DNA of 63,833 nt, the filler included, from Kipferlia bialata (taxonomy: Eukaryota), in assembly GCA_003568945.1 (NCBI GenBank). It is 7 parts of 6 records of this genome, joined end to end, with 100 filler letters (N's around TTAATTAATTAA, not from the genome) between each part and the next. Parts side by side here need not be neighbours in the genome. Positions count along the whole stretch, not along the records: positions 1 to 6,594 come from BDIP01001064.1; positions 6,695 to 10,849 come from BDIP01001064.1; positions 10,950 to 23,531 come from BDIP01001065.1; positions 23,632 to 36,185 come from BDIP01001066.1; positions 36,286 to 48,837 come from BDIP01001067.1; positions 48,938 to 61,484 come from BDIP01001068.1; 1 more part is not named here. One strand, 5' to 3'. Positions 1 to 63,833 of this stretch are shown in pieces; the stretch's first letter is position 1, and the number at the start of each line of letters is the position of its first letter. A program made the translations under genes and the position numbers. The notes beneath the pieces are model-generated. The model saw only the letters and a program-made list of their open reading frames with translations. It made no database searches and was not told the DNA's origin.

Positions 1-196
1 AAAACCAAAAGGGGGAAAATCCCCCCCCCCCCCCCCCCCTCACACACACAACCCACCACCACCACCCACATGTGGCATTTGCTTATATGGACTCTTAACC
101 CCCAGGACCCATGCCCATGCTGCCACCCCTCAACTCTCTCTCTCTCTCTCTCTCTCTCTATTTCAAGTTTACCCTTGTGTCCTTCTTAACCATTAG

Positions 197-288
197 GACC
201 CATGCCCATGCTGCCACCCTTCAGCTACTGGAGTCACTCAGAGAGGCCATGGATGACACACAGGTAGGGAATGTATGGTGGTCTATTG

Positions 289-332
<44 letters not shown>

Positions 333-3300
333 TCCCTCTTTACCATCAGGTCTCAGGTGCCCGCACTGTCCTGCCTCTCTCTCTCTCTCTCTCTCTCTCT
401 GTCTTAACCATCAGGTCTCAGGTGCCCGCACTGTCTTGCCCCAGCTATGCACTGCGGTGGCACACTTCTTTGTGGCACAGCTATTTAGGGACACGGCGCT
501 AGGTGAGTATATATATATATATGTGTGTGTGTGTATGTATGTATCCATTCAAGCAATGTTATTGCCCACTTCTTCGTGGCACAGCTATTTAGGGACACGG
601 CACTCGGTACGAGAAGTGACTATACATATATATGCGAGTCTTGTACTCGTAACGATGGCTGAATACTTATACTCTGACTCCTGTACACTGTACTTACCAC
701 CCAGGCGAGGCTGTCTCTCTGATAGTGACTGGTCTCAACCACAGAGACCCAGAGGTCAGGGGGGCATGCGCCAACATCGTCAGGTAGGACCATTTCTATA
801 TAGTACTGTGACTTTGTGCATCTTGACTCACCTTTAGGCACATCTACACCCAGGCCCAGCAGCTGTTGGTCTCTGCCCCTGCCCTCGTGTCATTCTGTGT
901 GGGATCACCCGCACTCCAGGTACGATGATATAGTGTATTACGTAATACTATACTATGTACCTATGGGTATTCTTGCATGTGTCTAACCCCCAGGACCAGG
1001 CCCCCACCCTCCTCAACAGTCTCTCTCTCTCTCTCTCTTTTCTTATCTTTCATGTCTAACCCCCAGGACCAGGCCCCGACCCTCCTGGCTGCTCTTACAC
1101 CCATCAGCAGACGCTATGCCGCCACCATGTCCCTCCCTGCCGCCTCTGCCAGGCACACCCAAGTGCAGATAGCTAGGTATGTGATACTAGTGCATTATGT
1201 AGTGTATAGTGTATACATATAAATGTATATAGTAATAGTGCTTCTGCCAGACACGCCCAAGTCCAGATAGCGAGGTACCAATGCTAGTATATATATACCA
1301 GTATTGTATATATGTACAATTTTCTCACCCACCAGGCTGATTAGTGGCCAGGGCAACCCCAGAGGAGTGGCCATGGCCCTCAAGGTATCCACTGTCATTC
1401 ATATCACCCACTTATATATATATACCCACTTACCCCCAGGAGTCCCTGGATGGTGCCCGGGGCGGCATGGGCATGGGGCAGACAGGGGACTTCCAGAAGG
1501 TACAGCCTCTCTCTCTCTCTCTCTCTCTCTACACCCTTAATGGTAGGTCTGTCAGGTCATGTCCAACACCATCTCTCTCTCTCTCTCTCTCTCTACACCC
1601 TTATTGTCAGGTCTGCCAGGTCATGTCCAACACCATCCTGGAGTGTGTTCTGTCTGAGAGAGAGAGAGAGACCTCCAGGCTGGACGAGAAGGAGAGGGAG
1701 AGAGACAGAGAGTCCCCAGACGGCAAGGAGAAGAAGGCTGAGCGCGAGAGGGAGAGGGAGAGGGAGAGGGAGAGAGATATCATCTGCCAGTTTGTGGACT
1801 ATCTCGACCCCGAGATCTACGCCTGCCTCAGAGCCGAGCTCCTCAGGAGAACAAGGTACTATATGTACGCAGTATGATCTTAATATTACGCGATATATAC
1901 TGATACCCAGGGATGTTGTGTCGGACATTCTCGCCGATGCCCAGAGTCACTGTGAGAGGGAGAGAGAGAGGGCGGAACAGAAGGAGAGAGAGTCTGCTGC
2001 TGATACCGAGAGGGAGAGAGAGAGAGTCCGCGATGACAGGGAGAGAGAGAGAGAGCTCGAGAATGCTGACCTGAGGCGCATGTCCCTGTCGCCCACATTC
2101 GTCAGCAGGTAATGCGAATGTACTCACACATAGAATGATAATTAGTTCATTGTCCCTGCTGGGTAAACTTGCATTCTTCATTCTCTTACCCTCAGGGACC
2201 CTTCTCACATGAGACTGCTCGAGAGGGAGCGTGAGAGGAAGAGGGAGAGGGAGAGAAGAGAGGGCCATGCCTCAAGTGACAGGGAGAGAGAGAGAGAGTC
2301 TGACCTGGAGGAGGTGTGCTCGGTCCCAGTCTCTCAGGTACCAATAATGTTGAGTATATATTGTATATATTGTACCTTATCCTCAGGTTGCCACTCTGGG
2401 TGCTGTCCTGGGCCGTCTGACTGTGGCCCTGTCCAGACCCATCCTCAGGAGGGAGCTGGACCTCAGGTATATACACCTCCCTATCTCTCTCTCTCAGCAT
2501 GATGTTATGTAAGTTCTTTCTAGTGAATGCGTCTTACCCGCAGAGCCCTGCTTCTGACCTCCCTCCAGTACAACGAGGCCCAGTCTATGGAGAGGGTCAT
2601 TGTGCTGGCTATTGGGATTGTCAGAGCTTGCAGGTAAGTATTTTGTTAGAACACGAATATGTTCACTCTTTCTCTCCCTGTCTGACCCTCTAGGTGGAGC
2701 AGGTTCCTCCCCATCACCAGCTCATGGGCCGTGGACATACTGTCCGTGGTGCAGGTAAAGACACTAATCTCTCTCTATTATGTAAAGATCCACACTCTCT
2801 ATTTGATTTCATCTCACCATCTATTATTATTTTAACCCCCAGGAGATCAGTTTGTATTCTCTTTGTTAGTCTTATTCTCTTGGTTAGTCATTTGATTACT
2901 TCCAACCCTCAGGAGATCATCCACAAGAGAAGTGACATTGTCACCCTGAGTGCCAAGCTGGAGCTGTCGACACTTAAGACTGATTGCCCGGGGATCAGGT
3001 ATTATACACATTTCATATTCTTCAAATATACACATTCTAAGTTTCCAGACAGAATAGTGTTTGTAGTAGTCCTTTCTCAATGCTCACCCCAGACATGACA
3101 AGCTCATTGACCGCCACCTCGTCACACCACTGGCTGTGCCCAAGGTAGGGACTTCTCTCTCTCTCTCATGGTTCTTCTTCTCTCTCTATCCCTTACCCTG
3201 TTACACATGGCTTTCTTTGCACTCTCTTTCACTATCTACTTTGTAGTATACATATACGTATAGTCTCTTCATATTAACACAAGGCCGTCTGCCCCGTCCT

Positions 3301-6300
3301 TGTCCCCCACTCCATGCCAGCTCTGGTGCCACCACCAAGGTATCTCTCTCTCTCTCTCTCTCTCTCTTAGTATCCCCACTTCTCTCAATTGCGCGCGCGC
3401 TCCTTCTCTTCCCCTCTCACCCCCCAGAGCTCTATCCGACACCCTTCTCCTCTCCCACGGCCTGTCCTCGTCAGATGCCAACTGGAGAAGGTATGCACAC
3501 ACACACACATGTGTATGGTATCCATTCCACTTATAACAATATCCCTTGTATATATATACAAGGTCTATGTCTATTTGTCTTTCTCACCCCCAGGCTGAGC
3601 CCCCTGGCAGAGGCACTGGCAGCAGCCAACCCTACACTCCTACAGGTATGGCCACTATTTAGCTGCATATAATGCTTAAATATCGCGTATATTTCTCACT
3701 GTAGGACGTCCAATCTGCTGCCAAGACAGCCAAGGAGCAGGTGGAGGCCGAGGTTGCCAGGAAGGCCGCCACACAGGCCATGGCCACAACGGCATCTCTC
3801 ATACCATACGGTACGGACTAATCTACGCGATGTGATGGTACTACACGATCCTTACTGACTCCAGATCTGTTTGCCGGCGAGACCCACTCTGTTGTGGGGT
3901 CTGAGGGTGTCCCTGCCTTTGCCCAGTCCCACTCGGCATCACTCCCGCAGAGGAAGCCACAGCCTATTAGGAGGTATATATATATACATACATGTATATA
4001 TATATATTTATATGGTAATATATGTGTATATGTATATATATTGCCCAGTCCCACTCGGCATCACTCCCACAGAGGAAGCCTCAGCCAATTAGAAGGTATA
4101 GACTGAGTGTACAGCAGTCCTAATATCTCTTTCATTGGTTCTCTCTAACTCTCCAGGAGTGCCATTGAGGCTGTCCTCTATGCCACTGTGGCCAAGCTAG
4201 CCGGGTCACTGGCAGCTGGGTCTCTGCTGGTCAAGCTCAGGTATGCAAGCCATATGGAAAGACAAGCGTCAGTGGCATTGATATCATACATTTTATTTTG
4301 TATATACATATACTTCGTTTCTTACACCCAGGAACCAGCTCATGGATGCCATCCTGCCCAACGTCACAAGGTATGAAGTGTATGTGACATTATAGTTTTA
4401 CAGTTGTGTCTCTCTCTCTTTCTATGTATGTCTCACCCCAGCACTGTCCCCGAGGCAATGAATGTAGTATATACATATATTTGTAGTGATGTCTAAGTGT
4501 ATGTGTGTCTCACCCCAAGCACTGTCCCCGAGGCAGAGCAGCTGGTGCTGAGGCTGGTGGCATCACTCATTAGAAGGTATTGTTCACAATGTGAACTTCA
4601 CATATACATGGGACTATACTCCATGATACATTTACATGTGAGTAATGTCATTGTGTTGGTGATTCATTCGGATTCGGAATATTCATTCATTTACCATAGG
4701 GTTGTGCAGGGCCACATTGGTAAGGTGGAGGCCACAGCTGCAGACCTGGCCAAGAAGATGATGCACGAGAGGTATGGATACAGTATGTATATATCAATGT
4801 GCAGGATCTACATCAGATAGTATATTGAGTGTATTTGTAATTATAGAGTTGGGTTGCTATGACCTGGCCAAGAAGATGATGCACGAGAGGTATGATATGG
4901 TTATAATGAATATTCATAGCGTCATGCATGTATATTTCTAATTCCTAGGCTATCTGGCATGCTTGCCTCTGACCCCCGTCCCATCCCCAAGCACCTGAGG
5001 GTCAGCAGCAGACTGCTCAGCAGTGACATGGGTATGTTCGTGTGTTACGTGTCATACTAACAACCACATGTCTACTCTACTATAGCTCTGAAATGATACA
5101 TATGTATATGAATGTGTGTTTATGTCTTTGTCTTACCCCCCAGTCCACAAGTCCACCATGGGCCTCTACCATGACATTTTTTCCATTCTATAAGTATATA
5201 AGTATATATGAGTGTGTTCTTGTATAGTGTAGATTCACTGCCTTACCCCCCAGCCCACAAGTCCACCATGGGTCTGTGCACCGACCTGCACCCAACCCTC
5301 AAGGCAGTCAAGGGCGTCATCAGGTATATACATTATATACAGTATATTCACATTATTGTGGGTAGGCCACAGGATAATTGTATTTATAGTATGTGTGTCA
5401 TATACATCCTAGTGTATGTATATACTATATAGAACACTCAAGGCAGTCAAGGGCGTCATCACCTGATGATAGTGTGTTTGATATATACACGTATGTGAAT
5501 ATTAATATATATTTCTCTCCTCACACTAGGCGTAGTACTGAGGGCCCCCTTGTGCGCACTCTCTCTCTCTCTATCTCTTTAATAACCCCTCCTTATACAT
5601 AGGCGTAGTACCGAGGGCCCCCTTGTGCGCACTGTGTCTGTGGATGACAGGGCCAAGCTACTGGCATATGCACCCAGGGTGCTGGGAGACCAGCCAAGGT
5701 ATATATTAACTACTGATATAGTATAGTACTACTAGGTACATTCCTTACCTTTCCTCTTTACATTTGTATATGTCTGAATGTGAATCACTAGCTACTCTTG
5801 ATATCACATATACATATGCACCCAGAGTGCTGGGAGACCAGCCTAGGTATATATATACACTGCCTAGTATTTATTCAGATTATTCTTAGACCCATGTGTT
5901 GATATCTTCTCTTGCATAATGCATAATGTGTATATTTAACAGTGTGTATGTATGTATATGGCTGCCGTCTTCTCCTCTCACTCCCAGGGGTGGCCGGTGT
6001 CTGATCCCCCCCTCAGCAGATGGAGAGACATCCCTCAAGCTGTCAGAAGACGCAAGGTATAGTGATTATAGTGGAATGAATTTAAGGTGTACTCTCTGTC
6101 ACTGTGACATCCCTCAAGCTGTCAGAGGACGCAAGGTGTGTATACAATATCGTGTAGTATAGTAGACTATTAGTATAGACGTGAAGTAGTACAATACCCA
6201 GTATCTCTTCTTACCATCAGGTTGAGTGAGGACAGCCAGCTGATAGCCCCTGTCCTGAGGGCAGTACATGCATCAGTGAGGCAGTACTCGTATTACATGG

Positions 6301-6528
6301 ACAATGAGCCAGGTACAGTTTACGTAACCGTATCCTCTCTCTCTATGTATGCATGCACTTCCATCTTTACCCTCCATCTTACTCTGACCTATCTGATGTA
6401 TAAATGTATGAGTGACATACTCTTACCCCCCAGCTGACTCCGATGCGCCCTCTACCAGTGGCACCCCCTCCCCCATCCTGGCCTGTGACAGTCACGTCAC
6501 CCCAGAGGCAGTCAGGACAGCCCTGCAG
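197..6528 (+). CDS. Large multi-exon (about 25 or more exons) alpha-helical protein with a HEAT-like repeat and ER-rich tracts; truncated at both ends
   Basis: Hand-spliced GT-AG exons keep frame, e.g. ...AQLFRDTAL|GEAVSLIVTGLNHRDPEVRGACANIVR|HIYTQ... The segment LNHRDPEVRGACA resembles a HEAT-repeat turn. Family not recognised. Confidence 0.75.
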
Positions 6529-6594
6529 GTAAATACACTCCTTATCCCCCCCCCCCCTCTCTCTCTCTCTCTCTCTTCAAATGTGTACGTGCAT

Positions 6595-6694
6595 NNNNNN
6601 NNNNNNNNNNNNNNNNNNNNNNNNNNNNNNNNNNNNNNTTAATTAATTAANNNNNNNNNNNNNNNNNNNNNNNNNNNNNNNNNNNNNNNNNNNN
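6595..6694. other. Artificial contig spacer (N44-TTAATTAATTAA-N44)
   Basis: The same 100-nt linker, with stops in all frames, recurs at 10850-10949, 23532-23631, 36186-36285, 48838-48937 and 61485-61584. Confidence 0.98.
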
Positions 6695-6733
6695 CGCTGG
6701 CAGGGGGGTGGGGGGGTGGGGGGGGGGACTCAC

Positions 6734-6968
6734 TTGGGAGACCTTCCTTGGTCTTAGTGGCCCACACATTGTCAGAGCCGTCGACTGGCTCGAGCGACGC
6801 CTCCTCATACCGCCTGTCTGCAGACTGGTACCACAGATCACACTCGGACAGCAGGAAGCTCTGCTCAATGGAGGCACGGCGCTGGTGCCGCCTCCTGACA
6901 TTAAGGGCACATGCCACACCCGTACAGACTGTGGTGCCCACTGCCAGCAGTTCAACACAGTTCAGCAT
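6734..6968 (-). CDS. First exon of an unknown protein with an N-terminal hydrophobic anchor; remainder lost at the contig end
   Basis: MLNCVELLAVGTTVCTGVACALNVRRRH... followed by a GTGAGT donor at 6733. Confidence 0.55.
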
Positions 6969-7260
6969 CGATGAACACTGCCTAAAGAGAAGTGAACCAA
7001 GTCTCTCATTCAAGGGGCTCTAATACAATGAACAATCATTTATGCAGTATACCCTGGCCTTACAGGCAGTGGTCTTGCAAACGCCAGTATGACACATATT
7101 AAACAACACCCCACACTTCTTAGGGAAGGCGGGCACAAAAATACCGGAGAAGCGCAGCGCATTGATACAGATAGAATCAACACAGTCTGCGGCAAACCTC
7201 CAACCGGAACGAGGCAGAAACCCACACATCTGCCATCCCAGACTCTCAACGTCCCTCCCC

Positions 7261-7602
7261 TCACAGCTTGTCCTTGGCGGTCTTTGTGAGCATGGCGGTG
7301 GCAAACTCCCCACAGTGGGCTGCAGCAGAGGCAGACCTGTTTCTGGCAAACTCAATCACCATGTCCTTGCCAAACACGTTCATGCCCTGGAACCGCTGCA
7401 TGGCACCGGCAGCCTCCTCGGGCTTGGAGAACACGACAAAGGCCTGTCCACGCATGGGGCCCCTCTTGCACACAACTGAGATGACCCTCCCATGGGAGCT
7501 GAACAGGTGGTACAGGGACTCAGTCAGGTCCTTCTTGGAGACATGGTCATTGAGGTTCTTGATGTAGAGTGTCTCGTGGACGCTATCTCCCTCTACCTCC
7601 AT
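7261..7602 (-). CDS. U1A/U2B''/SNF-family spliceosomal single-RRM protein (113 aa, intronless)
   Basis: ETLYIKNLND...LYHLFSSHG...MRGQAFVVF...QGMNVFGKDMVIEFAR matches the U1A/U2B'' RRM1 pattern (TIYINNLNE, MRGQAFVIF, QGFPFYDKPMRIQYAK). An upstream in-frame ATG at 7701 is an alternative start. Confidence 0.9.
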   Translation of the reverse strand: MEVEGDSVHETLYIKNLNDHVSKKDLTESLYHLFSSHGRVISVVCKRGPMRGQAFVVFSKPEEAAGAMQRFQGMNVFGKDMVIEFARNRSASAAAHCGEFATAMLTKTAKDKL

Positions 7603-7733
7603 CCGATGATCAAGGTACAAGAAGAGAGCCATTCCAGCAGTGAGGGTATCCTCATTTCTTGCTCTCCCATCACTTTTTTCATACCCTCTCCTCTGAGCCA
7701 TGGACAGTTCCAGTCTGAACCGTCTCTAACAAC

Positions 7734-8863
7734 ATGAACCAGCACTACACCGAGCTATCTGCATCCCGTGAGGCCGAGGGCGCCCTACAGGCCAAGGTGT
7801 CCTCAGTGAGACACGAGAGTACGTGTCCATGCTCTTTCATCATTTCAAACATTGGTGACCAATGTGAATAGTCTGCCTCACCCCAGTTGTTGTTGCCTTC
7901 CATGCCCTGGACAATGGCAAGATATCCCCCGCCCAGTTCTATGCCGAGATGAAGGACCTTGGCGTGTACATGACAGAGAGCAGGTGGGTCTGGTTGAGTC
8001 GCATGTCACGATGCTTGGTATTATGATACTAGCCTGGTGCTGCTTGTCTTGTTTCGTACATAGGCTAACCCCAGCCGCCGTCTTATCACGGACTTCAAGT
8101 ACAGTGGTAACCTAGTGTTTCAGAGCCTGTTCAAGGCCATGTGTACACCAGGTAGGGTGTGTCAGTGAGCACCTGTCCTCTCCCCTTACATTCAGATGAG
8201 GGCTACATCAAGGAGTATGCTGTCAATGCCGGAATTGATGTGCAGCCCCCTGTCACAGAGGTGGAGGCACGCTACGAGAGGCCTGCCCCTCCCCAGGAGA
8301 GAGACAGGTGTGGCTTGTGTGCTTGCTATATCTCTCCCCCATGTATATACACATTTGTGTGTATCGCATGCGACTGACCCCAGCACCACTAGGTCTGAGC
8401 GTGTCCGTTCCATCATGACCACCTTCTGCGATGGCCACATGAGGCCAGAGGAGGCAGCCAGGGTGGGGCATGTCACAATATGTATATGACACTATGACTC
8501 TCTGATGAGCCTCGCCCTCACTCCCAGTCCCTGGGTGCCCTTGACCTCACTGTGTCCGACGAGTTGACCAGAGTCATGAACAGGCACTTCCAGACATCCT
8601 GCTCCTCCTTCAGAGAGATGATGCACCTCATCACCATAGCCAACGAGGAGGCAGGGGCAGGGACCGGAAAGGTATGTCACGGGTATAGTGTCACAAATGC
8701 AGTAATGTACTAGACTTAGGGTATAATATCTTTACCAGTCCCACACCAGCCCCTGGTGTCTGTGAGGCATGCCCCCCTCGATCAGTGTGTGTCCCCCCAG
8801 AGTGAGAAGGTCCAGAGGGACATTGTGGGGAAGGGGGTCAGAGACTCAATCTCCTGGTTCTAG
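7734..8863 (+). CDS. Seven-exon protein with degenerate EF-hand-like segments
   Basis: Spliced: MNQHYTELS...RHE|IVVAFHALDNGKISPAQFYAEMKDLGVYM...|...RDSISWF*. The segment AFHALDNGKISPAQF is EF-hand-like. Confidence 0.65.
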
Positions 8864-9138
8864 AGGAAGTGTGAGTCAGTGTATGAGTAGAAGAATGAGA
8901 ATATTGTAGATTGACCGTAATAGATATCGATTTGAGAGGTGTCAAGTCAGATGCAACAGCATTTGAGTAGCTTAAAACCAGTATACGAACCGCATCACAC
9001 CACACAGAGACTATCTCAATTATTCATTCATATTCTTCAATCGTATTCTCGCTTGGACCGTCTCTACCCTGGCCCAAGTGCCGGCACACCCTCCAAACGG
9101 AGAGCAGCAGGCCCTAGCTAAAGCCACGCCGTCACACC

Positions 9139-10797: not shown

Positions 10798-10949
10798 CTG
10801 GGGATGAGGGGGGGGGGGGGGGGGGGGGGGGGGAAAGGGTATAAAAACANNNNNNNNNNNNNNNNNNNNNNNNNNNNNNNNNNNNNNNNNNNNTTAATTA
10901 ATTAANNNNNNNNNNNNNNNNNNNNNNNNNNNNNNNNNNNNNNNNNNNN

Positions 10950-10999
<50 letters not shown>

Positions 11000-11138
11000 G
11001 TATCCACTGTATTTATGTCTATATGTATTGAGTATATATCTCCCCTTAGGTGATGACCATGAGTTTGAGGGCAAGCTGTATCTCTCTTTCTCTCTCTAGC
11101 CTATATATATATATACAGTATACATATCCACACCTTAG

Positions 11139-12263
11139 GCGATGACGATGAGTTTGAGGGCAAGCAGTCCCCTGCTGACCTGCATATGCACGAGACACAC
11201 CAGGTATGAGTGTATATCTGCGACAGTGTATACGTGTATCTTGTTTCTCCATCAGACCCTGGCCCTAGCAGATCGAGACATTTACTGGGATCAGCATCAC
11301 TTGTATTCATATACTCACCCCCATATCACCCTATAGATCTATATATACTTATATATGCTCATGTGATACTCACCCCCTAGTCCCTTGCACAGCAGGTCAG
11401 GGCCTCAATACCCTCTCTCTCTCTCTCTTTGAAGTAGTTCTATAAGTCTACTTCTTTTCATCTCTATATACCTCTGTATCTCACCCCCCAGTCCCTTGCC
11501 CAGCAGGTCGGGGTGGCACCGGTGGTAGGGTACAGCAGGTTGGTATAGACCATATATATATATATATACTAATTACTCACCAACATCCAACATCGGTGGA
11601 TATATATATATATTGTTTACAGAGTCTATATGCAGTAGTGGTGGCACCAGTGGTAGGCTACAGCAGGTATGTGTACTGTGTGTACATAGTTATATGTAAA
11701 TTGTTGTATGAATATAGACTGAGAGATAGGTACTGTATTTGTTCCATCTCTCTCTCTCTCCCCTTCTGACATTAAGGGTTGACCCTATGCTCAACCCCAA
11801 GATCAAGCTCTGTGCCAATGGCGCTGTTGTCCTTGTAGGGCTACTCTGCTGCCTGTACTACCCCAACGTGGGAGACATCCTAGGTATCGCGCAGATATTG
11901 TAGTAAGCTTATGTGAGTGTCGCGTAGTATATCAACCTAGTTTTGTCCTCTAACCATAGGCTATGCCGGTGCCATTGGGGGAGGCATGTATGCCTTCCTC
12001 ATGCCTGTCCTCACCCACAAGAAGATCATACAGGTATGGGTCTCTTCTCTCGGACTACGTCTTACTCGGCATATACTGAGGGGCCGTGGCTCTCAGTATA
12101 TGCCGAAGTCCTTGGTCTGTATAGCATATTTGTGGAATGGTCTCTCCCTCTACCCCCTTAATACCAGGTCTTTGGCCGATGGGACATGAGGCAGGAGATC
12201 GTCAGCTGGCTGTGTCTGTCTGTGGGTGCCACAGCCATCATAGGGCAGTTCCTCTTCACATAA
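11139..12263 (+). CDS. Amino-acid transporter (Aa_trans), SLC38A9-like, C-terminal exons only
   Basis: Spliced ...GLLCCLYYPNVGDILGYAGAIGGGMYAFLMPVL...VGATAIIGQFLFT* parallels the SLC38A9 C-terminus (FYPNIGGIIRYSGAACG...FIYPS...LIVQFFM). Confidence 0.75.
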
Positions 12264-49454: not shown

Positions 49455-52400
49455 ATGTCCAGCATGTCAAGTGATGACTGTGCGTCACATACATACCCCT
49501 TTGTGGCCCACAAGGCATTCAAACCGTACAGGTGTGATGGAACACATGTCACACCCTGTGACGTTGTCACACTCTGCCCTGGGACCATGGTACGGTTCAT
49601 AGTCGTGGATGAGGGCACCACTGTCACACCCATGCATCTCTCAGAGGCTGGGGAGACGGTGCCATATCCATCGGGTATCACCCACATACCATTCCCAGCC
49701 TATGGTGTCCGAGAGGGAGATTGCCTGGTGGGTGTGGAGTGGGATATGGCTGAGAGAGACAGATTGGGCAAGGGAGATGGAGATGGGAGCAACATGGAGG
49801 GGCAGCGAGAGGATATGCTTGGAGGCACCAAGGCCAAGAGATGCTGCCGTATCCTTCCCTCCCTCCAAAAGGAGGACTACATCGATCCTGCCAGGCCCTG
49901 TGGAGAGGTTTCCAAAATGATGATGCACCTAATACCACGGCCTGGCAAGACACCTCTTTGCCTGGGTCCCTATGAGTTCTATTTCCAAAAGGATGACCCT
50001 TTTGTGGACACTCACTATGACGAAAAGGCACATGTGATTATTGGAGATACAAGGAGGGCTTTTGAGGACCAAGAGACCCAGGAGTGGCCACTTGTGGGTT
50101 GCGAGGGGGACTACTCTATGGTATCGCAGAGACCGATACTCTGGGATGTGGATGTAGTACACGTTGCTATTGCGAGCGCTCACTCTGTTGAGTGTGGCAT
50201 GCTACCCTACAGAGTGTCAATTCCACCTGTCATCCAGCTGGCGATGCTGGGGTATCAATATCTGCACCAGACAGCAAGGTATCGTGATTCCTCTCTCAAT
50301 AGTCTAATCATCTCATTGCAGGCTACTCCATCAGCAGCTTTTCATAGTCAATACAAATATTTGATATATTTCATATCACCAGAGGTACCAAAGACACAGT
50401 TGTGTCCCCCATGGCTGTATGTAGGCGAAATATTGTATATCTACGTCGCCTCTCACTTCCAGTCAACTCAACACTATCCCAGCCAATGTGGCATTCCGTC
50501 ACTGTCGCTCCTTGTCAGCACTGGGATATGTCAGGGACGCCCTAAGGGTGGTGAATGGTACACTCACAGGGCTGGAGAGGGTGGCTGGGTTGTGTGGCTT
50601 AAAGATGGGACTCTCAGATACAGAGATTAGTCTTTGCGAAAAGATTGTCCAGTCGAGCGGGATAGTAGCCAATGAGGAAGGGATAGTTGCTGCATTCTGC
50701 ATAGGGATGCAAGGCTCCAAGGTGGATGATGTCTTGATGATGGACAGTCCCTTTGTGCGGCATGTGTGTGCCCTGGCCACCATCGCACAGGGAGTCAATG
50801 TACCCATCAGCATTCCAAGTGTGCCTGTGGTGGACGCCCTCTGCCAGGTGTCAGCAGCGCTGTATCCAGACAGACCTCTCTTCAGCGCATCGACCTCCAC
50901 CCAAGAGGAGTATCTCTCTGTTGTGATCACTGCAGCAGCACGGGCACCCCTCTATATGCCTTTCTGGAGAGATGTGTCACGTGTCATATTATTGATCACC
51001 CCTGAGTCTAGACTAGAGTCTAGTACATGTGTCCTGGACCTCTCCCTCCTATCACTAGAGACCCTGCCCCCTGGACACACCATGGCTAACATCTTATCAC
51101 TGCTGCACAGGGTATCCTTTAGAGCCCTTGTGGGTGCTAGGAGGCTGTCTCTCTTGCTACACCCATCGGTCCCACCTCTTCTTGCAGATGTGTTGGAAGC
51201 AGCCCTCTTGTCGAAGGAGGATATGGAGAATGATGCTCTCGAGTATGAGGACTATGATGGCCCGTATGATCTATATCCATCAGTGGCTGGGGTTTCTTTC
51301 ACCCCCTACAAGATACTTATGCATATTCCAGGTTCGGTGTGTGTAGGTGTCTTTCTCTTAGTTCAGTGTTGTAGATGTCTTGGAACACAATGATTAATTA
51401 CTTTCAAGTATAGTGTTCCTTGCATTCATACACACTGAGACTCACTAACAGGGTCTTCCTATCCAGTGACTGTGCGGGGGTGGCAACAGCTTGTGCCTCT
51501 CTCGCAGACAGAGGTTAGTGCTATATTTATTACATCTTCTCCTCCTATATTTCAATTCATGTAGTGGCAGATATGTTGCCCTTCAGTAAGAAACGTTGGT
51601 GACACACTGGTACAAGGGAATCACTAGAGTTCCACACTATCTCCATCCCATTCGAACTATAATCCCAGACGTTCTGCTTCGGTCCGCACAACGACCCCAC
51701 CAAAGATCCTCTAAACGATTTCATGTCTATTGCATCGGACAGGCAAATGCTTAGAGGAGAATACGAGGATGTCCTAAGTGGTGACATCCCATCTCTACAC
51801 GAGGCAGTTGCCCAGCCGGTGTTAGCACCAGAGACCAGCAGTAGCCTGCAGTGCGGTATATGGCGCAGATCGGTGGATGAGAGTACTGGCCACGTTGAGC
51901 ACTTCTGGGATCCTATCCTTTGCAATCCAAGAGCCCAAGGAAGGCAACCTGTCTATATCTCCGGCTGCATTCACTACTACCTGCCTCTCAGCGACACCCA
52001 CCCTCCCTCCGTGCTCACCCTGGACCTCGCCACCCATGACTGGAGCACACATCCGTCTGAGGAATCCCTCGGGTATGGACTCGTCTGTGAGATGCATGGG
52101 TGCCTCAGTGTACTGGCGGAAGGTAGCATTCCGGGGCATCGGGCGGTGTGGATGTGTGAGGTGACGGCCGGGTATCGCTGGCACTGCGGCACTGTTGCTG
52201 TTACGGGATCAGGGGGTGGGGGCAGTACACTGTGCAGAGAGAGAGATGACCACAGCGCTGGGTATTTGGAGGGTTCAGTTGTCATCAACAGCTATTCATC
52301 ATGCCAGGAGGAAACATCTGACTATATCATCACCCCATACCTGCTGGACAACTCACTAAGACTGTCCCCGCTTACACCTGACAGAATAGGGGGACATGTC

Positions 52401-52712
52401 ACCCTGGGTTCATGCGGCCTTCGAGCTCACCAGAGCGGTATCCGCGCCCTGTTACTCCAGGATGCAGTCAGTGGATCATGGTCGCAGCCATATACCGTCC
52501 CAGATGACCTTCCACCTCAGTTGGTAGTCATTGACCAGTTCACAGTGCTGGCCCTGGGAGAAGAGGGCAGGACATACCTGATCAACCTGCAGGAGTGGCT
52601 GTGGAACAATTGCATGGAGGCGGCACATGAGAGGCTCACTATTATGGACTTCGCAGCATCACGAGAACGGGTTGGAACTGGTCCTGAGAATGCGTATTAC
52701 ATAATGTTGTGA
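49455..52712 (+). CDS. Large lineage-specific protein (about 5 introns) with a C-terminal kelch-like propeller
   Basis: ORFs 49455-, 50488- and 51723- can be linked by GT-AG introns. The C-terminal VLTLDLATHDWS and QDAVSGSWS segments are kelch-like. Confidence 0.6.
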
Positions 52713-52966
52713 GTCACTTTGGTGATCACATTACTGATATGAGAGTTTTGCTCAAGCGTGAGAATATTATGTCTGATATATAGTATATTCAATACTGTTA
52801 CCATCAGTAATACTCATTTTCCCAACCGAATTTTAGACTTGAAGAATCGATATAATATGGACTCACTGATGTCAATGAAATCGACGTCATACATCTGGTA
52901 CTCTTCATTTATGGTTGCCCTATCGCTACATCAGTACGTGTCACAATGCATACAGTCCTTGTCTAT

Positions 52967-54085
52967 CTACTGACTGGTGTTGTGGGTACCGCACTCTGGG
53001 CACTTGTAGCACACAAAGTGCCTCTTGTCAGTCCAAGTGTTCTCACACTCCCTAGGGGGTCAGAGGAAGAGTATAACGATAGTACCTATATATATATAAT
53101 CACATATATGTCTGTACCTGCAGTGCACTTCGACCGGTGTCTGCAGGTGCTCTGGGATCACGTATGCGGCCCTCCTCTGTGCCATCCAGTCCTCCCAGGA
53201 CTGCTAAAGGTTTAGAGGCATGGATATCAACGCGATATGCATAATCGTGTAAGAATATAGTCCTTCCATATATCAACGCGATATCTATCAATCGTGTAGC
53301 TCCGTACCTTGTCCTTCCCCTCCAGGACCAGCTTGTTGCACAGGGGGCAGGTGTACATGTGGTTCTCCTCGCACTTGACACTGGGGGTGAGGGAGGGGAA
53401 TACGAAGATAGGTTGAATAATATTGTAAATATACAGAGTGAGTGATACTGGACACTGGGGGTGAGGGGGGGAAGTATAGTATACTCATATTCAAAGAGGC
53501 TGAAAAGTCTACATCAAGAGAAAGAGAGAGAGAGAATACACGTACAGGCACTTGTGGTGGACGCAGTGAAAGAGTGGTCACAGATAGATATCTAAAGCAC
53601 ATATATATTCAATATTACATATATACACTATTACTCACAGGCACTTGTGGTGGACGCAGTGTCCACAGGGGAGTATCACACTTGTATATTCAACATATTA
53701 TATGTATCCGTATACATAGTAATGTCAATACATATACTATCATACGTACAGGCACTTGTGGTGGACGCAGTGCCCACATGGCAGCACAATGGTGGCAAAG
53801 ACAGAGTGCATCAAGGGGTCAGCACAGATGGGACAATCCTGGTATAAAGGGGGTAGAGGGTGAGAGAGAGAGTGCATCAGGGGGTCAGCACAGATGGGGC
53901 AGTCCTAGAATTAAGGGTGTAGGGGGGGGGAGGGAGAGAGAGATAGTTAGGGGGTCAGCACAGATGGGGCAGTCCTAGAGTTAGATAAGTACACATACAT
54001 GTAAATAAACATATAAATGGTGTATAGATGTATACTAATATGCTATGCATCACAGATGGGACAGTCCTGGTATTAAGGGGGTAGG

Positions 54086-54132
<47 letters not shown>

Positions 54133-54579
54133 TGTACCTTGGTGGGCTTTGCGCATCTGTGGCTGTCGAAGTACTGGGAGAAGTAGCATGTGTTGCACTC
54201 GTCACAGTGCTTGAGCATGCCATCAAGGGCTACACGGCACACACCTAGGGGTAAGGGATATTGTATCCATATATAATAATACACATAACATACAGCATAT
54301 ACAGAAGTACATACCACGTAATATTTACAGTATATACAGAACTACATACCACACTGGTCGCAATGCACAGTGGGCTTCGTGTCTGGGCCGGTGGAGTCAA
54401 ACAGCCTGGGGGGTTAATATGATAATGCTATATATATATATAGTCAAAGAGCCTGGGTCAACGTTGGGAAAATTGGATAGTGAAGTAACAGCCTTTCAAA
54501 TACCATATATTAGTCAATACCTGCAAGGTCCGCAGTAGTGGTCTGCGTAGACTGTCCCACACTTCTCCCTCTCTCTCTC

Positions 54580-54621
<42 letters not shown>

Positions 54622-56687
54622 TCTCTCTCTCTCTCTTTATATATATATATATATATGTATATGAATATATATATACATACCTACAGGGTCCGCAGTAGTG
54701 GTCTGCGTAGACTGTGCCGCACTTCTCGCAGTGGTCCATGATACCAGACTCGTGGCCACACTCTAGGCACCTAATGCGCTGGATCTCAAACCTATACGTG
54801 AGGTACATGGATATATAAAAGAAGAGAGAGAGACAGGATAGGAAGCGATGTGAGGGGACTATAAATCTGATGCCAGAGAGAGATGTATATATATACAAAC
54901 CTAGGCATCGCGTGGTCCACAATCTCTGCTGCTCATATATATATATGATAGAGATATAGGTAGATATATATATATACATATACACTATATATGTGTGTAT
55001 ATATACCTAGGCATCGCGTGGTCCACAATCTCTGCGTCGTGGCAGCGTCTGCACATGTACCACTCCCCACACACAGAGCACTGGGCCTCGCACTTCCTAG
55101 GGGTGAATGGCACTTAATATGTCTATATACATATATACTATACCTGATGTAGTCACTCTACTATATATATGAATATAAATACATCCTGTATACATATACT
55201 ATACCTTATGTAGTGTGGGCACCCCCTCCTTCTGACTGAGTATATATTCATCTATATCTTACTATATACTATATATACTATATATATATATATATATATA
55301 TACATACCTGATGTAGTGTGGGCACCCCCTCCTTCTGACTGAGTATACATACATCTCTCCCTATACTATACATATACATGTATACATACATATATACATC
55401 CTGTACCTGATGTAGTGTGGGCACCCCCTCCTTCTGACTGAGTATATATACATCCCTCTGGCTCTATCTACTATGCATACTCTCTCTTGCTATATACTAT
55501 ATATATATATTCATACATATATGTCTACATACCTTATGTAGTGTGGGGACCCTCTCCTTCTGACTGAGAATATACACCTCTCACTCCCTATATACTTTAT
55601 ATATATATGTGTGTGTGTGTGTATATATGTATGTATATATATATATATATATACCTGATGTAGTGTGGGCACCCCCTCCTTCTGACTGGGTCTGGCAGGA
55701 CACGCAGGTATACACAGTCAGCTGGGATGTCATCGTAGTTCTCCTGGGGTTGGATAGAGAATCATTTATGGTTAAATAGAGGAACACAGAGAGAGTGGGG
55801 AAATGAGTAAGAAGGACAAGAAACTGAACATGAGTCTGATGTCATCGTAGTTCTCCTGGGGTTAGAGAGAGGTTCATCTATACTATAGTATATACATGCA
55901 TAGATTACTGATACTGATACTGATGTTATAGTAGTTCTCCTGGTATGTTAGATAGAGAATCATTTATACTATAGTATACATGTATAGATACTGATACTGA
56001 TACTGATGTCATCGTAGTTCTCCGGGGGTTAGATAGAGGACAGGGAATAGAGGAAGGAAGAGAGTTCATATTGTAGAAGTATCAATTTAGATTATAGTAT
56101 ACATACATACCTCCTCCTTCTCCTTCTCCTTCTCCTCCTCCTTCTCCTTCTCTCCCTCTCCCTCGGCAGCCTCAGCCTCAGTCTCCTCCTCTCCGTCTCT
56201 CTCCCTCTCTCTCTCTCTCTCCATATCAGCATCAGCAGCGGCCTCAGCCTCAGCCTCAGCCTCAGCATCAGCCTCTGCCTCTACGTCTGCGAGTACATCA
56301 CCCTCGGCAGCGACCAGGGCCTCCATCAGCTCGGCCTCCATTCCTACGCGGTCAGAAACACTCATCGCGTAAGAAATAACGTATATATAAATATAGCATG
56401 ATGTACCTGTCAGCTCCTCCTCTGTGTTTCCAATCTCCATGTCCACATCATATGTAGTGTCGGTCCCCTCTGTGGCCTCTGTCTCTGTGGTACCCTCCTC
56501 CTCCTCCTCCAGGGCGTGGAGCATGTCCTCTAGGTTCTCAGGGTCAAGACCAGCAGCAATACGGGCCCTGGGGTTAGTATATAAATAAGGCTTTAATTAA
56601 TACTGTATATAAAATAATATACCTCTGCATGGCCTCTGCTGCCTGCTGGGCTGCAACAATAAACCACACAGTAAATATATACATATA

Positions 56688-56725
<38 letters not shown>

Positions 56726-59027
56726 CACCTCTGCATGGCCTCTGCTGGGCTGCAACAATAAACCACACAATATATATATATATATATATATATATACTAT
56801 TATATATATATATATATATATATCCCACCTCTGCATGGCCTCTGCTGCCTGTACTTCATACGCTATACAACTAAAATAGATACATATATACCATCACCCT
56901 CTCTCTAATGAATATATTATATACATAAATATATACAAAATAGCAACAATGTACCTCTGCATGGCCTCTGCTGCCTGCTGGGCTGCAACCATGCGCTCCC
57001 TGGAGGGTAAGGGTATAGGAAACACAAAACAATCACAATACTCAATCACAATAATTCACGTATTTTACCTTGTAACTTATATCAATAGTGCTGTATCACA
57101 GTATATACCTGGATGGCATTGTTATCAGCAGGTCACATATCCATGTACGTATACTACCTAGCATATATATAATGCCATTCCTAGAATATATACATACATA
57201 TTTGTATATATACATATATATATGTATGTATATTCATGTATATGCATACCTGGATGGCATTGTCCTCAGCAGGTTACAGACCTCTCCCAGAGAGGACTTG
57301 GAGAGGGTCTCTGTACGGGCCTGGGGGTTAGGAACAAAGAATAAAACTACAATATTCTTTACAAAACAATAAATACACACACATATATGCTATAAGCACA
57401 TACTGGGACAGAGCCTCGGTGCGGGCCTGGGGGTAGAGTGTGACAACACAAAACAATGGGTACCACATATACATGATATATATCCACACACCTTCTCCGC
57501 CTCTGTCTGTGCCTCCGAGTCCTCTAGGCATATATATACTAAGACATAATATAACACATTTACTAATATATATGTATATATACATTATACCTTCTCCTCC
57601 TCTGTCTGTGCCTCTGTGTCCTCTGGGAATGCAATGCCAACAACAGTCTGCATGGTGGCATGGAAGGCCTCAACGATAGGCCTGAGTTTAGTATCAACAT
57701 ATGTATGTATATATATAAATGTATATATATATATGGAGAGAGAGGCACTGGATGTATGGTGGCATGGAAGGCCTCAACGATAGGCCTAGAGGGTGGGTAT
57801 ACACACACTACTCATCTATACACATATTGTATAAGTATATATGTATCCATCCATACTTTGCCTCCTCCGACACGTCTGCGTGCATCACCCTCCACTGCAC
57901 ATAGGTGGCCATGACATTGGTCAGAACTGGAGGTTAGTATAAGGTATATTGCATACACACACTCACACACACACATATATATATATATATATACATAATA
58001 GAATACTTCTTCACTGCACATAGGTGGCCATGACATTGGTCAGGACTGATGATTAGATTAATGGATATGGTATACTACCAACATGTATATGTGTAAATAT
58101 ATACTATGATAGAATACATCTCCACTACACATAGGTGGCTATGACATTGGTCAGGACTGGGGTTAGTGTATGAGGTATAATATATCAGTATAAAAGTATA
58201 TATACTATAATACAATGTATATTATAACTATACATAGGTGGACATGACATTGGTCAGGACTGGGAATGAGGGGATATATGAAACACAATACTTCAACCAT
58301 ATATATATATATATATATATATACATACGCATATATAATGTATACAGTCCACACCTGGGGGGAGTCTTCTAATGACCGACCCGATATCTCCATCACCGAG
58401 TAGGTTCAGCATATGTGTATCGTGTAGATTGTGTGTGGCATCGCGTAGAATACGGAATCTCCACTTTCTGAACACCAGTCCCAGCACAATTAAAACGATG
58501 TCTAGAGCGATGGTAGAGAGAGAGAGAGAGGTGGGGCGGACTCCAGCAAAGATAAACACTGCAGCAGCCACTATACAGGTCAGTACCCCCAGCATCTCAG
58601 GGCTGAGGGCTGGGGGTTAATATATTAGTATATGTACATATACAGAGTACACACTACCATATCTGCATCTGTCATTAACTAACCTACTGGCAGTCTTCCA
58701 CTGATGGGTATCACCCTCATAGAGCATACATGCATANNNNNNNNNNNNNNNNNNNNNNNNNNNNNNNACCCTCATAGAGCATACATGCATACATACATCT
58801 ATATAGAGTATAGTATATGCACCATATACACATTGTATCACTAACCTACTGGCAGTCTTCCACTGATGGGTATCACCCTCATGGGCTGCTCCTCAGGCTC
58901 AAGGCCAGCGGCAGCACGCTTCTAAGGGTGAGGGGGTTGATTATAAAGAGACCATAACTGGAAATAACTGGTTTTGAACGGTCACCCTGTCATACTTTAG
59001 GCATATATATATACGCATATCTATCTA

Positions 59028-59063
<36 letters not shown>

Positions 59064-61283
59064 CTACACATACCTCCGCTGCCTCCTTGGTCTTCCTGTC
59101 AAACTCAAGGCAGTCAGAGATGATCTGGTCGGCAGACAGTCTGGGGGTAAGAATACACTACGGATATATCAATACAATGTATACATAGAGAGAGAGGGAG
59201 AGAGGGAGAGAGATGATTTGGTCGGCAGAGAGCCTAGGGGTAAGGATACTAATACAATACTCATGGGTGCATGTGGCAAATAGAAATGTAAATACCAAGT
59301 ATTCCTCTATACCTGAATGTCTCATCCATCTTATACATATAGTATACATATATGATGTATCATATATCATATATACCATTTCATGTATCATACATATGAT
59401 ATATACATAATTACCTGAATGTCTCCTCCCTCTGGATGACAGCAGCAGACACCATATGTGATATACACATAGTATACACATATGTATATAGTGTATCATA
59501 TATCATATATATGATATATATGATATCTATTACACACCTGAATGTCTCCTCCCTCTGGATGACAGCAGCGGACACCTCGGCAGTCCTCTCCTGATGTGAG
59601 AGGGGAATATACAAGATATATATATACTATGTACCCAATACATTAATACATTACATATAGTTGTGATACCTCGTCTGTCCTCTCCTGGTGTGAGTATGGT
59701 GTGTGTATAGGTATCATGGTGTATATTCCAGTATAGAGTGGAATATACTATATACCACATGAATATATTTGACTACTTGACACTTCGGCTGCCTGGGGGG
59801 TGAGACGTGTACACATGCATATACTCTGCTCTTCTCCGGCAGTCATTATTTCTTGAGTGGTGAATAGTGTATATATCAGTCAGAATAATCATACCTCCCT
59901 CTCCCTCTCTGCAGCTGCCAGGGCCTCGGCACGGACCTGGAGGTGAAGGGATAAAGAAACCATGACACAGAGTATATATACAAATGATATTATTACAGAA
60001 ATACTATCAAAATATAGTAAAATACTAATAGAAATATGGTATATAGTAATGACTATATGTAAAAATGTATGTATGAATACACAAATGCATACCTTAGCGT
60101 TGTGCTTGGCCTGGCGCCTCTTGTTAATATATATATATATATATATGTACAATTATATATATGTTAATATCTCTATATACATATATATACGTACCTTAGC
60201 GTTGTGCTTGGCCTGGCGTCTCTTGTTCTCGTGGTACCTGGGGGTAAAGATACAGAAGGTATATGCAACCTGAACTTGCGCCCCATCTTGTCAGGACATA
60301 CTCATTGACGATATATATGCATGTGTGTGTGTGTATATATAATATCTATATATCCACCTGAAAATGCGCCCCATCTTGTCATCAATGATACTCATTTACT
60401 ATATTATATACATATATACATTATTAGATATATACACATATATATACAAATATATATAAAGTATTCTACATACATATACATATACATATATATATACATT
60501 TATATATATATATTCTACCTGAACATGCGCCCCATCTTGTCATCCATGATACCTATTGACTATATATACATGTGATATATATACATATATGTACATATTA
60601 ATGTATATATAATATCTATATATCCACCTGAACATGCGCCCCATCTTGTCATCCATGATGTACCGGAAGTGTTTGTGGTCCTGGGGGTCAGAGATACAAT
60701 GTAGGAGAGAAATATACATATATCACTCTCTCTCTCTCTATATACATGTAAATGTACACATACACACACATGAAGTGCTTGTGGTCCTAAGGGGTAAGAG
60801 ATACAGTGTAGGAGAGTAATACAATATATATGTATGTGTGGCTGCATCTGACCCTGGGGTCAGAGATACATCACAAGGGATTACAACTGATATATCAATA
60901 TGTCCATCTATATCTATATCTATATAAACATCTATATATATATATATATATTGTACTCCTCAAATGCACATATGAGCTGACTCCTTGCAATCCCCCCACT
61001 AATTCTATACATACGTATACATTTACGAGTGTACACATATATTTACCTCATACTCCTCAAATGCACATATGGGCAGCATGTCTGCCTCCTTGCAGTTCTC
61101 TCTCTCCCTATCTCTCTCTCTATCTACATATATATATATACAAATGAGGATATATACACATACCTCATACTCCTCAAATGCACAGATGGGCAGCATGTCT
61201 GACTCCTTGCAGTGGTCCTTGTCCACAATGTGGCCAAACTCATCAGTATCATTGCCAATGGCAAACACAAACTCACGGAGTAC
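52967..61283 (-). CDS. Pirh2/RCHY1-type E3 ligase (CHY + CTCHY + RING-H2 + zinc ribbon) with a long N-terminal extension containing a hydrophobic hairpin; 5' truncated
   Basis: Frame traced across about 22 exons: GCPHYIR|KCEAQCSVCGEWYMCRRCHD (CHY), HCDQCG|VCRV, DCPICADPLMHSVFATIVLPCGHCVHHKCL|...YTCPLCNK (RING-H2), YKCPECGTHNTSQ*. Confidence 0.88.
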
Positions 61284-61430
61284 CTAGAAGTAAGACATAA
61301 ATATGTATATACGTACAAATGTTTCTATATCACATAATATATATATAATACCGAAGATATAAGAGAGAGACAGATAGAGATCATCAGTGTCATTGCCAAT
61401 GGCAAACACAAACTCGCGGAGGACCTACCG

Positions 61431-61484
<54 letters not shown>

Positions 61485-61643
61485 NNNNNNNNNNNNNNNN
61501 NNNNNNNNNNNNNNNNNNNNNNNNNNNNTTAATTAATTAANNNNNNNNNNNNNNNNNNNNNNNNNNNNNNNNNNNNNNNNNNNNGTTTTTTTTTGGTGTG
61601 TCCCCCCCCCCCCCCCCCCCCCCCCCGTACTTCCCCACCCCAG

Positions 61644-63790: not shown

Positions 63791-63833
63791 GTATGGATCC
63801 ACATGTATCTCTCCCCCCCCCCCCCGCCCCCCC

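What the first reader, a model, noticed from the sequence alone, without database searches (positions are those of the whole stretch)
95..61430. Consistent polarity of echoes places decoy donors and acceptors inside introns
Seen: copies of an exon's 3' end, usually with its GT donor, lie in the downstream intron (e.g. 4860-4895, 19452-19490, 21833-21880). Copies of the branch point/AG plus the exon's 5' start lie in the upstream intron (e.g. 95-132, 340-376, 983-1013, 18955-18988, 20020-20063, 22200-region). I saw none in the reverse arrangement. Introns therefore read GT...[echo]GT...AG[echo]...AG. The innermost pair would be the shortest intron but would insert junk. Inference: splicing needs exon definition (only the copy with both sites is used) or nested/recursive removal, which is unexpected in a short-intron protist. 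The process could also drive intron growth, exon replacement and intron gain by tandem duplication.
Basis: partly seen in the sequence, partly recalled or inferred. Interest (0 to 1): 0.72.

Follow-up and report, generated by a model that had tools for sequence, protein, structure and literature searches.

The report
Exon-end echoes from lost alleles
In this protist, about half the introns modelled here hold short extra copies of the neighbouring exon's end, splice site included, and these copies differ from the exon almost only at silent codon positions, so they are likely scars of DNA repair that copied a different working version of each gene, a possible trace of hidden sex or hybridisation.

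Summary
In 10 hand-curated Kipferlia bialata gene chains (142 exons, 132 introns), 54 acceptor echoes lie upstream and 53 donor echoes downstream of their exon, none reversed; 62 of 132 introns carry one. DNA contigs hold echo and exon on one contig at single-copy depth, and a probable RNA contig skips 7 echoes in 4 introns. The polarity itself is weak evidence: it follows from any local duplication with one end inside an exon. The new result is that echo-exon differences are mostly synonymous (pN/pS 0.10, 95% interval 0.065-0.148; a junk copy predicts about 0.5). Echo splice signals differ in sequence yet stay intact, and identity falls from about 0.95 to 0.5 at the splice site. Echoes therefore likely come from a diverged working allele, probably by homologue-templated break repair closed by end joining. 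Outer-site use fits exon-centred recognition; nested or recursive splicing is not supported. No second haplotype is visible now, and only one window was tested.

The parts
197..6528 (+). Gene chain G1 (unnamed protein), 30 exons, 14 echoes (7 acceptor, 7 donor)
   Evidence: open chain, all introns GT-AG; counts
93..135 (+). acceptor echo of exon 197-263 (exon nt 1-30)
337..375 (+). acceptor echo of exon 415-502
980..1013 (+). acceptor echo of exon 1067-1176
4861..4894 (+). donor echo of exon 4700-4771; 0 mismatches in 29 exon nt, intron flank no better than unrelated introns
11139..12263 (+). Gene chain G2 (3' part of a membrane protein), 5 exons, 3 echoes, all on one DNA contig at single-copy depth
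14955..18110 (-). Gene chain G3, 8 exons, 17 echoes including arrays of 4 acceptor copies (16842-17224) and 3 donor copies (17273-17539); RNA-type contig leaves room for exon 16383-16440 only
18385..23492 (+). CCDC39-family gene (PF24161, KIPB_004808), 22 exons, 14 echoes; model equals P0001 over 608 residues and is collinear with unbroken homologue matches
   Evidence: the name CCDC39 for PF24161 is recalled
18953..18988 (+). acceptor echo skipped in the RNA-type contig
19188..19233 (+). acceptor echo, scored stronger than the true site, skipped in the RNA-type contig
19451..19487 (+). donor echo of exon 19289-19387
20019..20063 (+). acceptor echo of exon 20123-20215
20263..20421 (+). two donor echoes of exon 20123-20215; 5 and 4 differences, all synonymous
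21833..21883 (+). donor echo of exon 21691-21781
21932..22192 (+). acceptor echo array before exon 22234-22315 (spans an N gap)
36355..39286 (+). Gene chain G5 (exportin-2/CSE1-like C-terminus, name recalled, not tested), 16 exons, 6 echoes
41188..42824 (-). Gene chain G6, 8 exons, 2 acceptor echoes
43547..48308 (-). Gene chain G7 (amino-acid-transporter-like, name recalled, not tested), 18 exons, 18 echoes
52967..61283 (-). CHY/RING zinc-finger gene (KIPB_004822), 22 modelled exons, 36 echoes
55190..55566 (-). array of four donor echoes of exon 55655-55743; the public protein carries one extra 9-residue repeat matching one copy
61381..61427 (-). acceptor echo of exon 61164-61283; 3 differences, all synonymous

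Best explanation
Each echo is a 15-59 nt piece of exon end plus its splice signal lying 64-162 nt from the next copy, and it was likely copied from a diverged working allele of the same gene during repair of a DNA break. Shown: the structure, the synonymous bias, the intact but different splice signals, and outer-site use in 4 introns. Inferred: a break, often at a (CT)n tract, was extended on a homologous chromosome of another lineage (about 19% synonymous divergence, near-unalignable introns); synthesis ran across the intron into the next exon and was closed by microhomology end joining instead of in-register annealing. That leaves two versions of one junction side by side, and unequal exchange likely multiplied some into arrays. 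Selection likely keeps only products whose extra copy holds a truncated exon, which explains the polarity. The spliceosome likely picks the sites nearest each other across a full GC-rich exon, so echoes are skipped and decay slowly.
For: pS 111/630 = 0.176, pN 44/2181 = 0.020 over 95 echoes; 95 of 139 unique differences synonymous versus 0.37-0.52 expected for a neutral echo beside an exon that changes only silently (P = 7e-5 against 0.52). One echo per boundary (68): pN/pS 0.10, interval 0.065-0.148; synonymous counts are Poisson (dispersion 0.98), fitting one fixed divergence; exponential ages reached this in 0 of 2,000 simulations, uniform ages in 1.65%. Identity about 0.95 on the exon side and about 0.5 from donor +3 on; 40-nt intron flank better than unrelated introns in only 23 of 97. 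Echo AG intact 48 of 50, GT 44 of 48; branch motif kept in 34 of 50 despite 3.4 differences per 12 nt, versus 16-24 simulated. Non-synonymous differences look like recent decay (26 GC-to-AT versus 10, 3 stops among 44), synonymous ones are nearer symmetric (40 versus 28). No local repeats in 23,140 bases outside the models. 27 of 50 acceptor junctions lie beside (CT/GA)n versus about 10% background. Metamonads lack Ku/DNA-PKcs and fornicates lack Rad51A but have two Dmc1 (PMC8516963 section 8); failed SDSA closed by theta-mediated end joining gives tandem duplications in C. elegans (PMC8654963 passages).
Against: No donor haplotype is visible: 1 other letter in the laid DNA contigs, flat depth over exons, and one protein per query, so the source is inferred. 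About 10 of 97 echoes have closely similar intron flanks and look like same-chromosome duplicates. Spacers within arrays diverge quickly even where echo parts are near-identical, so fast slippage alone can erase intron similarity. Donor junctions are barely enriched for (CT/GA)n (8 of 48). Junction microhomology could not be measured because the second parent is unknown. Differences not shared by all copies of an array are only 17 synonymous to 16 non-synonymous. The 23 kb control is partly coding and poor in microsatellites. One window only.
Confidence: 0.55

Rival explanations
1. Same-chromosome tandem duplication first; afterwards the exon copy was swapped for other alleles by ordinary recombination or gene conversion confined to exons, while the echo kept the founding allele. 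It also needs diverged alleles and recombination; only the order differs.
For: Explains the synonymous bias equally well. All 9 differences shared by every copy of an array are synonymous; about 10 of 97 echoes have similar flanks; arrays often share one breakpoint.
Against: Young same-chromosome copies should keep similar intron flanks and the same donor +3..+6 (identical in 7 of 44). No excess of echoes with zero synonymous differences (25 seen, 21 expected). No comparable repeats outside intron-exon junctions.
Confidence: 0.22
2. Echoes are kept by present-day function: as conserved splicing decoys, as steps of nested or recursive splicing, or as silent cassettes converted into the exon.
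For: Splice signals are intact. The public zinc-finger protein includes one echo-like 9-residue mini-exon.
Against: Recursive anatomy is absent (8 of 50; 0 of 48). Use of an echo site gives a stop in 74 of 93 and is in frame and open in 9 of 93. Three unique echo differences are stop codons. The RNA-type contigs skip them. By my equilibrium argument (inference), cassette conversion on one chromosome cannot push pN/pS below about 0.5.
Confidence: 0.1
3. Ordinary neutral tandem duplications by slippage at microsatellites, filtered by selection; echoes are junk from birth.
For: Explains polarity, spacing and microsatellite association (55 of 62 echo introns versus 26 of 70 others hold a dinucleotide run, though length confounds this).
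Against: Predicts pN/pS of 0.5 or more and at most 52% synonymous differences under 12 mutation models; observed 0.10 and 68%.
Confidence: 0.06
4. Assembly artefact: two haplotypes or strains were stitched in tandem by a short-read assembler.
For: Uniform synonymous divergence is what two haplotypes would give. One probable local misassembly lies at a donor array (17614-17683). Many junctions abut microsatellites.
Against: Separately assembled contigs of run X1 run through echo and exon without gaps (11010-12487, three pairs; 17277-17628) at depth 465-488 versus 496 between genes, with no sign of a second haplotype over exons; X1 holds 0.97 of sampled words of 100-6000. Arrays of 3-4 distinct copies exceed two haplotypes.
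Confidence: 0.05

Closest known systems
Tandem duplications from aborted homologous repair closed by polymerase theta end joining (helq-1 and brc-1 C. elegans; PMC8654963, passages read)
   Same: Head-to-tail local copies of about 100 bp and up; proposed route of synthesis on a template followed by end joining.
   Different: There the copies are new and rare, median about 1 kb, and not tied to splice sites. Here they sit at about half the introns, span 64-162 nt, and the two copies carry a coding-selection signature.
Intron gain by tandem genomic duplication (Hellsten 2011, PMC3265369, abstract read; PMC4974935 and PMC2891723, search listing only)
   Same: A segmental duplication creates competing splice sites and the outer pair is spliced.
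   Different: Those are single cases that create a new intron position. Here an existing junction is doubled, the intron grows, and no new position was shown.
Competing splice sites: intron-centric versus exon-centric proximity rules (PMC9225289, passages read)
   Same: With equal-strength sites the pair nearest across the exon is chosen under exon definition, as seen in the 4 introns checked.
   Different: That paper ties exon definition to introns over about 250 nt in humans. Here echo-free introns have a median near 90 nt, the innermost alternative a median of 80 nt, and U1-70K, U2AF35 and SF1 were not detected in this species (PMC6679479 supplement file 10).
Recursive splicing and fungal stwintrons (recalled; PMC8469720 search listing only)
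   Same: Introns with internal splice sites in a nested order.
   Different: No regenerated splice site at the inner junctions in most cases; inner removal would leave junk in the message.
Tandem whole-exon duplication with mutually exclusive splicing (recalled)
   Same: Duplicated exon sequence under protein-level selection.
   Different: Echoes cover a median 36-45% of the exon and one splice site only and are not translated where checked.

Membership tests
Neutral same-chromosome tandem duplication | Head-to-tail copy next to its source | tested here: met
   steps of 64-162 nt, same orientation
Neutral same-chromosome tandem duplication | Junk copy diverges without regard to codon position (pN/pS about 0.5 or more against the exon) | tested here: not met
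   pN/pS 0.10, interval 0.065-0.148; 126 of 176 mismatches at third positions
Neutral same-chromosome tandem duplication | Whole unit, intron part included, about equally similar | tested here: not met
   23 of 97 flanks beat unrelated introns; identity step at the splice site; fast slippage is a confounder
Duplication by homologue-templated repair plus end joining | One copy matches a different allele | tested here: inconclusive
   selection signature fits but no second haplotype is present; the metagenome scan gave only 3 distant relatives
Duplication by homologue-templated repair plus end joining | Microhomology or templated insertion at the junction | tested here: inconclusive
   27 of 50 acceptor junctions beside (CT/GA)n, 8 of 48 donor junctions; second parent unknown
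Duplication by homologue-templated repair plus end joining | Repair genes (polymerase theta, HELQ, Dmc1) present or absent as the model needs | not testable with these tools
   no genome held; only group-level statements read in PMC8516963; its Supplementary Data 2 was not read
Exon definition (exon-centric proximity) | Of competing equal-strength sites, those nearest across the exon are used | tested here: met
   4 of 4 echo-bearing introns that could be checked, 7 echoes skipped; acceptor scores equal; contigs show the main path only
Exon definition (exon-centric proximity) | Cross-exon assembly shown by mutation of the partner site | not testable with these tools
   needs minigenes
Recursive or nested splicing | First step regenerates a splice site at the new junction | tested here: not met
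   8 of 50 acceptor echoes begin GT; 38 of 48 donor echoes end AG but 0 have a branch motif before it
Intron gain by tandem duplication | New intron position flanked by duplicated coding sequence | tested here: inconclusive
   one annotated 9-residue echo-like mini-exon in P0002, no RNA check

The most novel reading that the evidence does not exclude
The K. bialata genome was once heterozygous for two lineages about 19% apart at silent sites and was homogenised junction by junction by Dmc1-only, NHEJ-free repair. The echoes are a genome-wide fossil record of the lost haplotype, and so evidence of sex or hybridisation in a metamonad. They also show a reduced spliceosome, with no detected U1-70K or U2AF35, choosing sites across exons in a genome of 90-nt introns.
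Probability: 0.35. Interest if true: 0.88.

Novelty: new variant of a known kind. Interest (0 to 1): 0.72.

Why it matters
Sex or parasex has not been directly observed in Metamonada (PMC8516963, passage). If echoes are captured alleles, one haploid-looking assembly holds thousands of paired allele fragments (extrapolating from 110 in this window), which makes past recombination and diversity testable from a single genome. The echoes are also a natural set of equal-strength competing splice sites in short introns, which makes exon versus intron definition directly testable in a lineage with a reduced spliceosome. They give a concrete route of intron lengthening (87 to 250 nt median) and mislead gene finders: my own predictor and possibly the public annotation took echoes for exons.

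Tried and rejected
No whole genome is held, so no genome-wide count. Read laying succeeded for one stretch only (10950-19800); the other genes have no RNA check. No listed holder is on record as RNA; X2 is a guess by the tool, though its joints are GT-AG and skip introns. The metagenome scan found 3 relatives of P0001 at 24-30% identity and no close strain. My automatic gene finder included echoes as exons, so chains were curated by hand. Two terminal exons I had guessed (58520-58609, 58355-58412) were dropped after P0002 showed one gene; searches used the uncorrected split. The three echoes of exon 17614-17683 were left out of all codon counts because that exon is frameshifted in the window. 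Age ordering within arrays was not significant (pN 5/486 nearest versus 14/620 farther, P = 0.16). Exon-side divergence did not predict flank similarity (rho -0.14, P = 0.17). Mutation bias up to kappa 8 and fourfold GC-to-AT could not give the synonymous excess. Same-chromosome conversion and pop-out hazard were rejected by argument, not by data. Two look-ups of earlier findings returned nothing. Paper searches listed no description of such echoes in Kipferlia or elsewhere; the library lacks most subscription papers, and only listings were seen for most hits.
Full report
Setting. The window is several scaffolds joined by N spacers. Exon 18385-18510 matches KIPB_004808 of Kipferlia bialata at 100% and exons at 56408 and 61164 match KIPB_004822. 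The species is a free-living fornicate with 124,912 annotated GU-AG introns (PMC5874029, passages). No whole genome was available, so every count below is for this window.

Gene models. A small gene finder trained on the window took many echoes for exons, so I curated chains by hand, requiring GT-AG and an open frame (two mistyped coordinates of the CCDC39-family chain were corrected). Checks: that chain equals the public protein over 608 residues and aligns to L003 over residues 17-609 with two one-residue gaps (24% identity; L001 and L002 have 12 and 7 gap openings). 22 of my 24 exon peptides for the zinc-finger region occur in P0002; the other two were wrong terminal guesses and were dropped. 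The public models are predictions, so they are only partly independent. Final set: 10 chains, 142 exons, 132 introns.

The observation. Each exon was aligned to both flanking introns. Strict scan: 50 acceptor-type echoes upstream, 48 donor-type downstream, none reversed, 3 other, and 0 hits in 1,440 foreign pairs. Relaxed scan: 54, 53, none reversed, 3 other; 62 of 132 introns carry echoes; in all 11 introns with both kinds the donor echoes come first. The three others also lie on the expected side. Echoes hold 15-47 nt (acceptor, median 30) or 23-59 nt (donor, median 35.5) of exon; successive copies are 64-162 nt apart; 19 of 68 boundaries have arrays of 2-4 copies. Two compact chains (11 introns) have none.

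Are they real DNA? Contigs of run X1 cross echo and exon without gaps, for example 11010-12487 (three pairs, depth 474.7) and 17277-17628 (depth 488), against 495.6 between genes; only one other letter is listed and depth does not double over exons. X1 may be the window's own source, but these contigs were assembled separately. Against: at 17649-17664 the RNA-type contig lacks 10 letters, no X1 contig is laid at 17664, and the window's exon there is frameshifted, so one array is probably misassembled.

What the polarity means. A head-to-tail copy with one end in an intron and one in the adjacent exon always leaves the partial copy on the intron side of its own junction. The reverse order needs a copy of a whole exon or whole intron, which would make a complete extra exon and is likely purged. 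The polarity is therefore expected (inference) and is not itself evidence about splicing.

Which sites are used. In run X2 (RNA by the tool's guess), record 12 has GT-AG joints at 18508-18638 and 19122-19285 and leaves exactly 82 letters for 19041-19122; record 11 leaves exactly 58 letters for exon 16383-16440. That skips 7 echoes in 4 introns; the middle exons are inferred from lengths, and contigs show only the main path, so decay of mis-spliced forms is not excluded. The decoys are not weak: AG intact in 48 of 50, GT in 44 of 48; by a weight matrix from 75 echo-free introns the echo acceptor scores as high or higher in 26 of 48, while donors are modestly weaker (true higher in 27 of 44, P = 0.005). 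The innermost intron has a median of 80 nt, like normal introns, and 29 of 62 echo introns are under 250 nt, where the intron-centric rule would pick the inner pair (PMC9225289, passages). Echo use would give a stop in 74 of 93 cases. What differs is context: 30-60 nt beyond the AG the GC content is 0.56 for true sites and 0.39 for echoes; before the GT, 0.59 and 0.32. Exon-centred choice is the likely rule (my odds about 0.75). It is notable because U1-70K, U2AF35 and SF1 were not detected in this species while U2AF65, U1A, U1C, Luc7 and SR-like proteins were (PMC6679479, supplement file 10). Recursive removal lacks the needed sites.

Over 99 echoes, with 3 nt trimmed at the ragged end, 126 of 176 mismatches fall on third codon positions and 120 are synonymous; a neutral echo beside a silently changing exon predicts 37-52% across 12 mutation models. 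With the strict set (95 echoes; 3 dropped at the frameshifted exon) pS is 0.176 and pN 0.020; 95 of 139 unique differences are synonymous. One echo per boundary gives pN/pS 0.10 (0.065-0.148), with Poisson-like synonymous counts that fit a single divergence better than spread-out ages. Detection was by DNA similarity and blind to frame. Identity drops from about 0.95 to about 0.5 immediately inside the intron (background 0.3-0.65), yet branch motifs and donor consensus are kept better than neutral change would allow. Non-synonymous differences look like recent AT-biased decay and include 3 stops. Both versions of each junction were thus likely working, translated sequence for most of their divergence, and the echo became junk only recently.

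Mechanism. The simplest source is another allele or lineage. Metamonads lack canonical NHEJ, and fornicates lack Rad51A and have two Dmc1 paralogues (PMC8516963 section 8); tolerance of Dmc1 for mismatches is recalled, not checked. Failed strand annealing closed by theta-mediated joining is a known source of tandem duplications (PMC8654963, passages). With unalignable introns, repair must run exon to exon; an out-of-register closure leaves two junction versions. Acceptor junctions lie beside (CT/GA)n in 27 of 50 cases against about 10% background, donors in only 8 of 48. No such repeats were found in 23,140 bases outside the models, and the 3 purely intronic ones lie in echo arrays, as expected if only exon parts of a diverged template stay recognisable; that control is partly coding and microsatellite-poor. 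Against: the donor haplotype is not visible, about a tenth of echoes look like same-chromosome copies, array-private differences are only half synonymous, and later swapping of the exon copy would give the same codon signature. I put 0.55 on capture at birth, 0.22 on later swapping, so about 0.77 on an allele origin of either kind.

Comparison and verdict. The parts are known: repair-born tandem duplications, competing splice sites, intron gain by duplication (PMC3265369, abstract; PMC11782384, abstract, concerns 4-30 bp repeats at the two ends of an intron; 10.1101/051292, first part read, found no such signatures in a mite). Nine paper searches listed no report of dense, polar exon-end copies with a coding-selection signature.

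Noticed in passing
window 55190-55443 (minus strand): The public protein P0002 repeats 9 residues of the CHY region; this matches a 27-nt AG-to-GT unit inside the donor echoes. It is either an exonised echo or an annotation error.
   Followed up: partly
window 17614-17683 (minus strand): The exon is 10 nt longer than the RNA-type contig and frameshifted; no DNA contig is laid at 17664. Probable local misassembly at a donor-echo array.
   Followed up: partly
window 58350-58620: About 270 nt of GC-balanced, non-repetitive sequence inside the 919-nt intron 57927-58845 of the public zinc-finger model, with splice-like sites at both ends; origin unexplained.
   Followed up: no
window 11130: The DNA contig has T where the window has A, at full depth; the T would give a better branch motif at the true acceptor. 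Base error or rare heterozygous site.
   Followed up: no
window 6695-10849, 23632-36185, 49400-52900, 61585-63833: Compact genes with short, microsatellite-poor introns or none (Sec23/24-family 29768-32302, CoaE 32567-33472, WD40 25498-26460, glycosyltransferase-like 62097-63044) carry no echoes, suggesting two gene compartments.
   Followed up: partly
window 45127-45236: A 55-nt unit made of part of an acceptor echo plus a GA run is itself exactly tandem-duplicated, a clear recent same-chromosome event.
   Followed up: partly
window, all modelled introns: A YTNAC branch-like motif lies 4-15 nt before the exon in 100 of 132 introns, mostly at 5-7 nt, resembling the fused branch point and acceptor of diplomonads.
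   Followed up: partly
window 1650-2300, 34790-36010, 56110-56340: GA dinucleotide runs invade coding exons and give long Glu-Arg repeats in several proteins.
   Followed up: no
window 40200-40231: Short near-tandem, partly palindromic element between genes; not examined.
   Followed up: no
L001-L003: Metagenome contigs hold relatives of P0001 (24-30% identity) that match in one unbroken stretch of about 1,776 nt, so apparently without introns; organisms not examined.
   Followed up: partly
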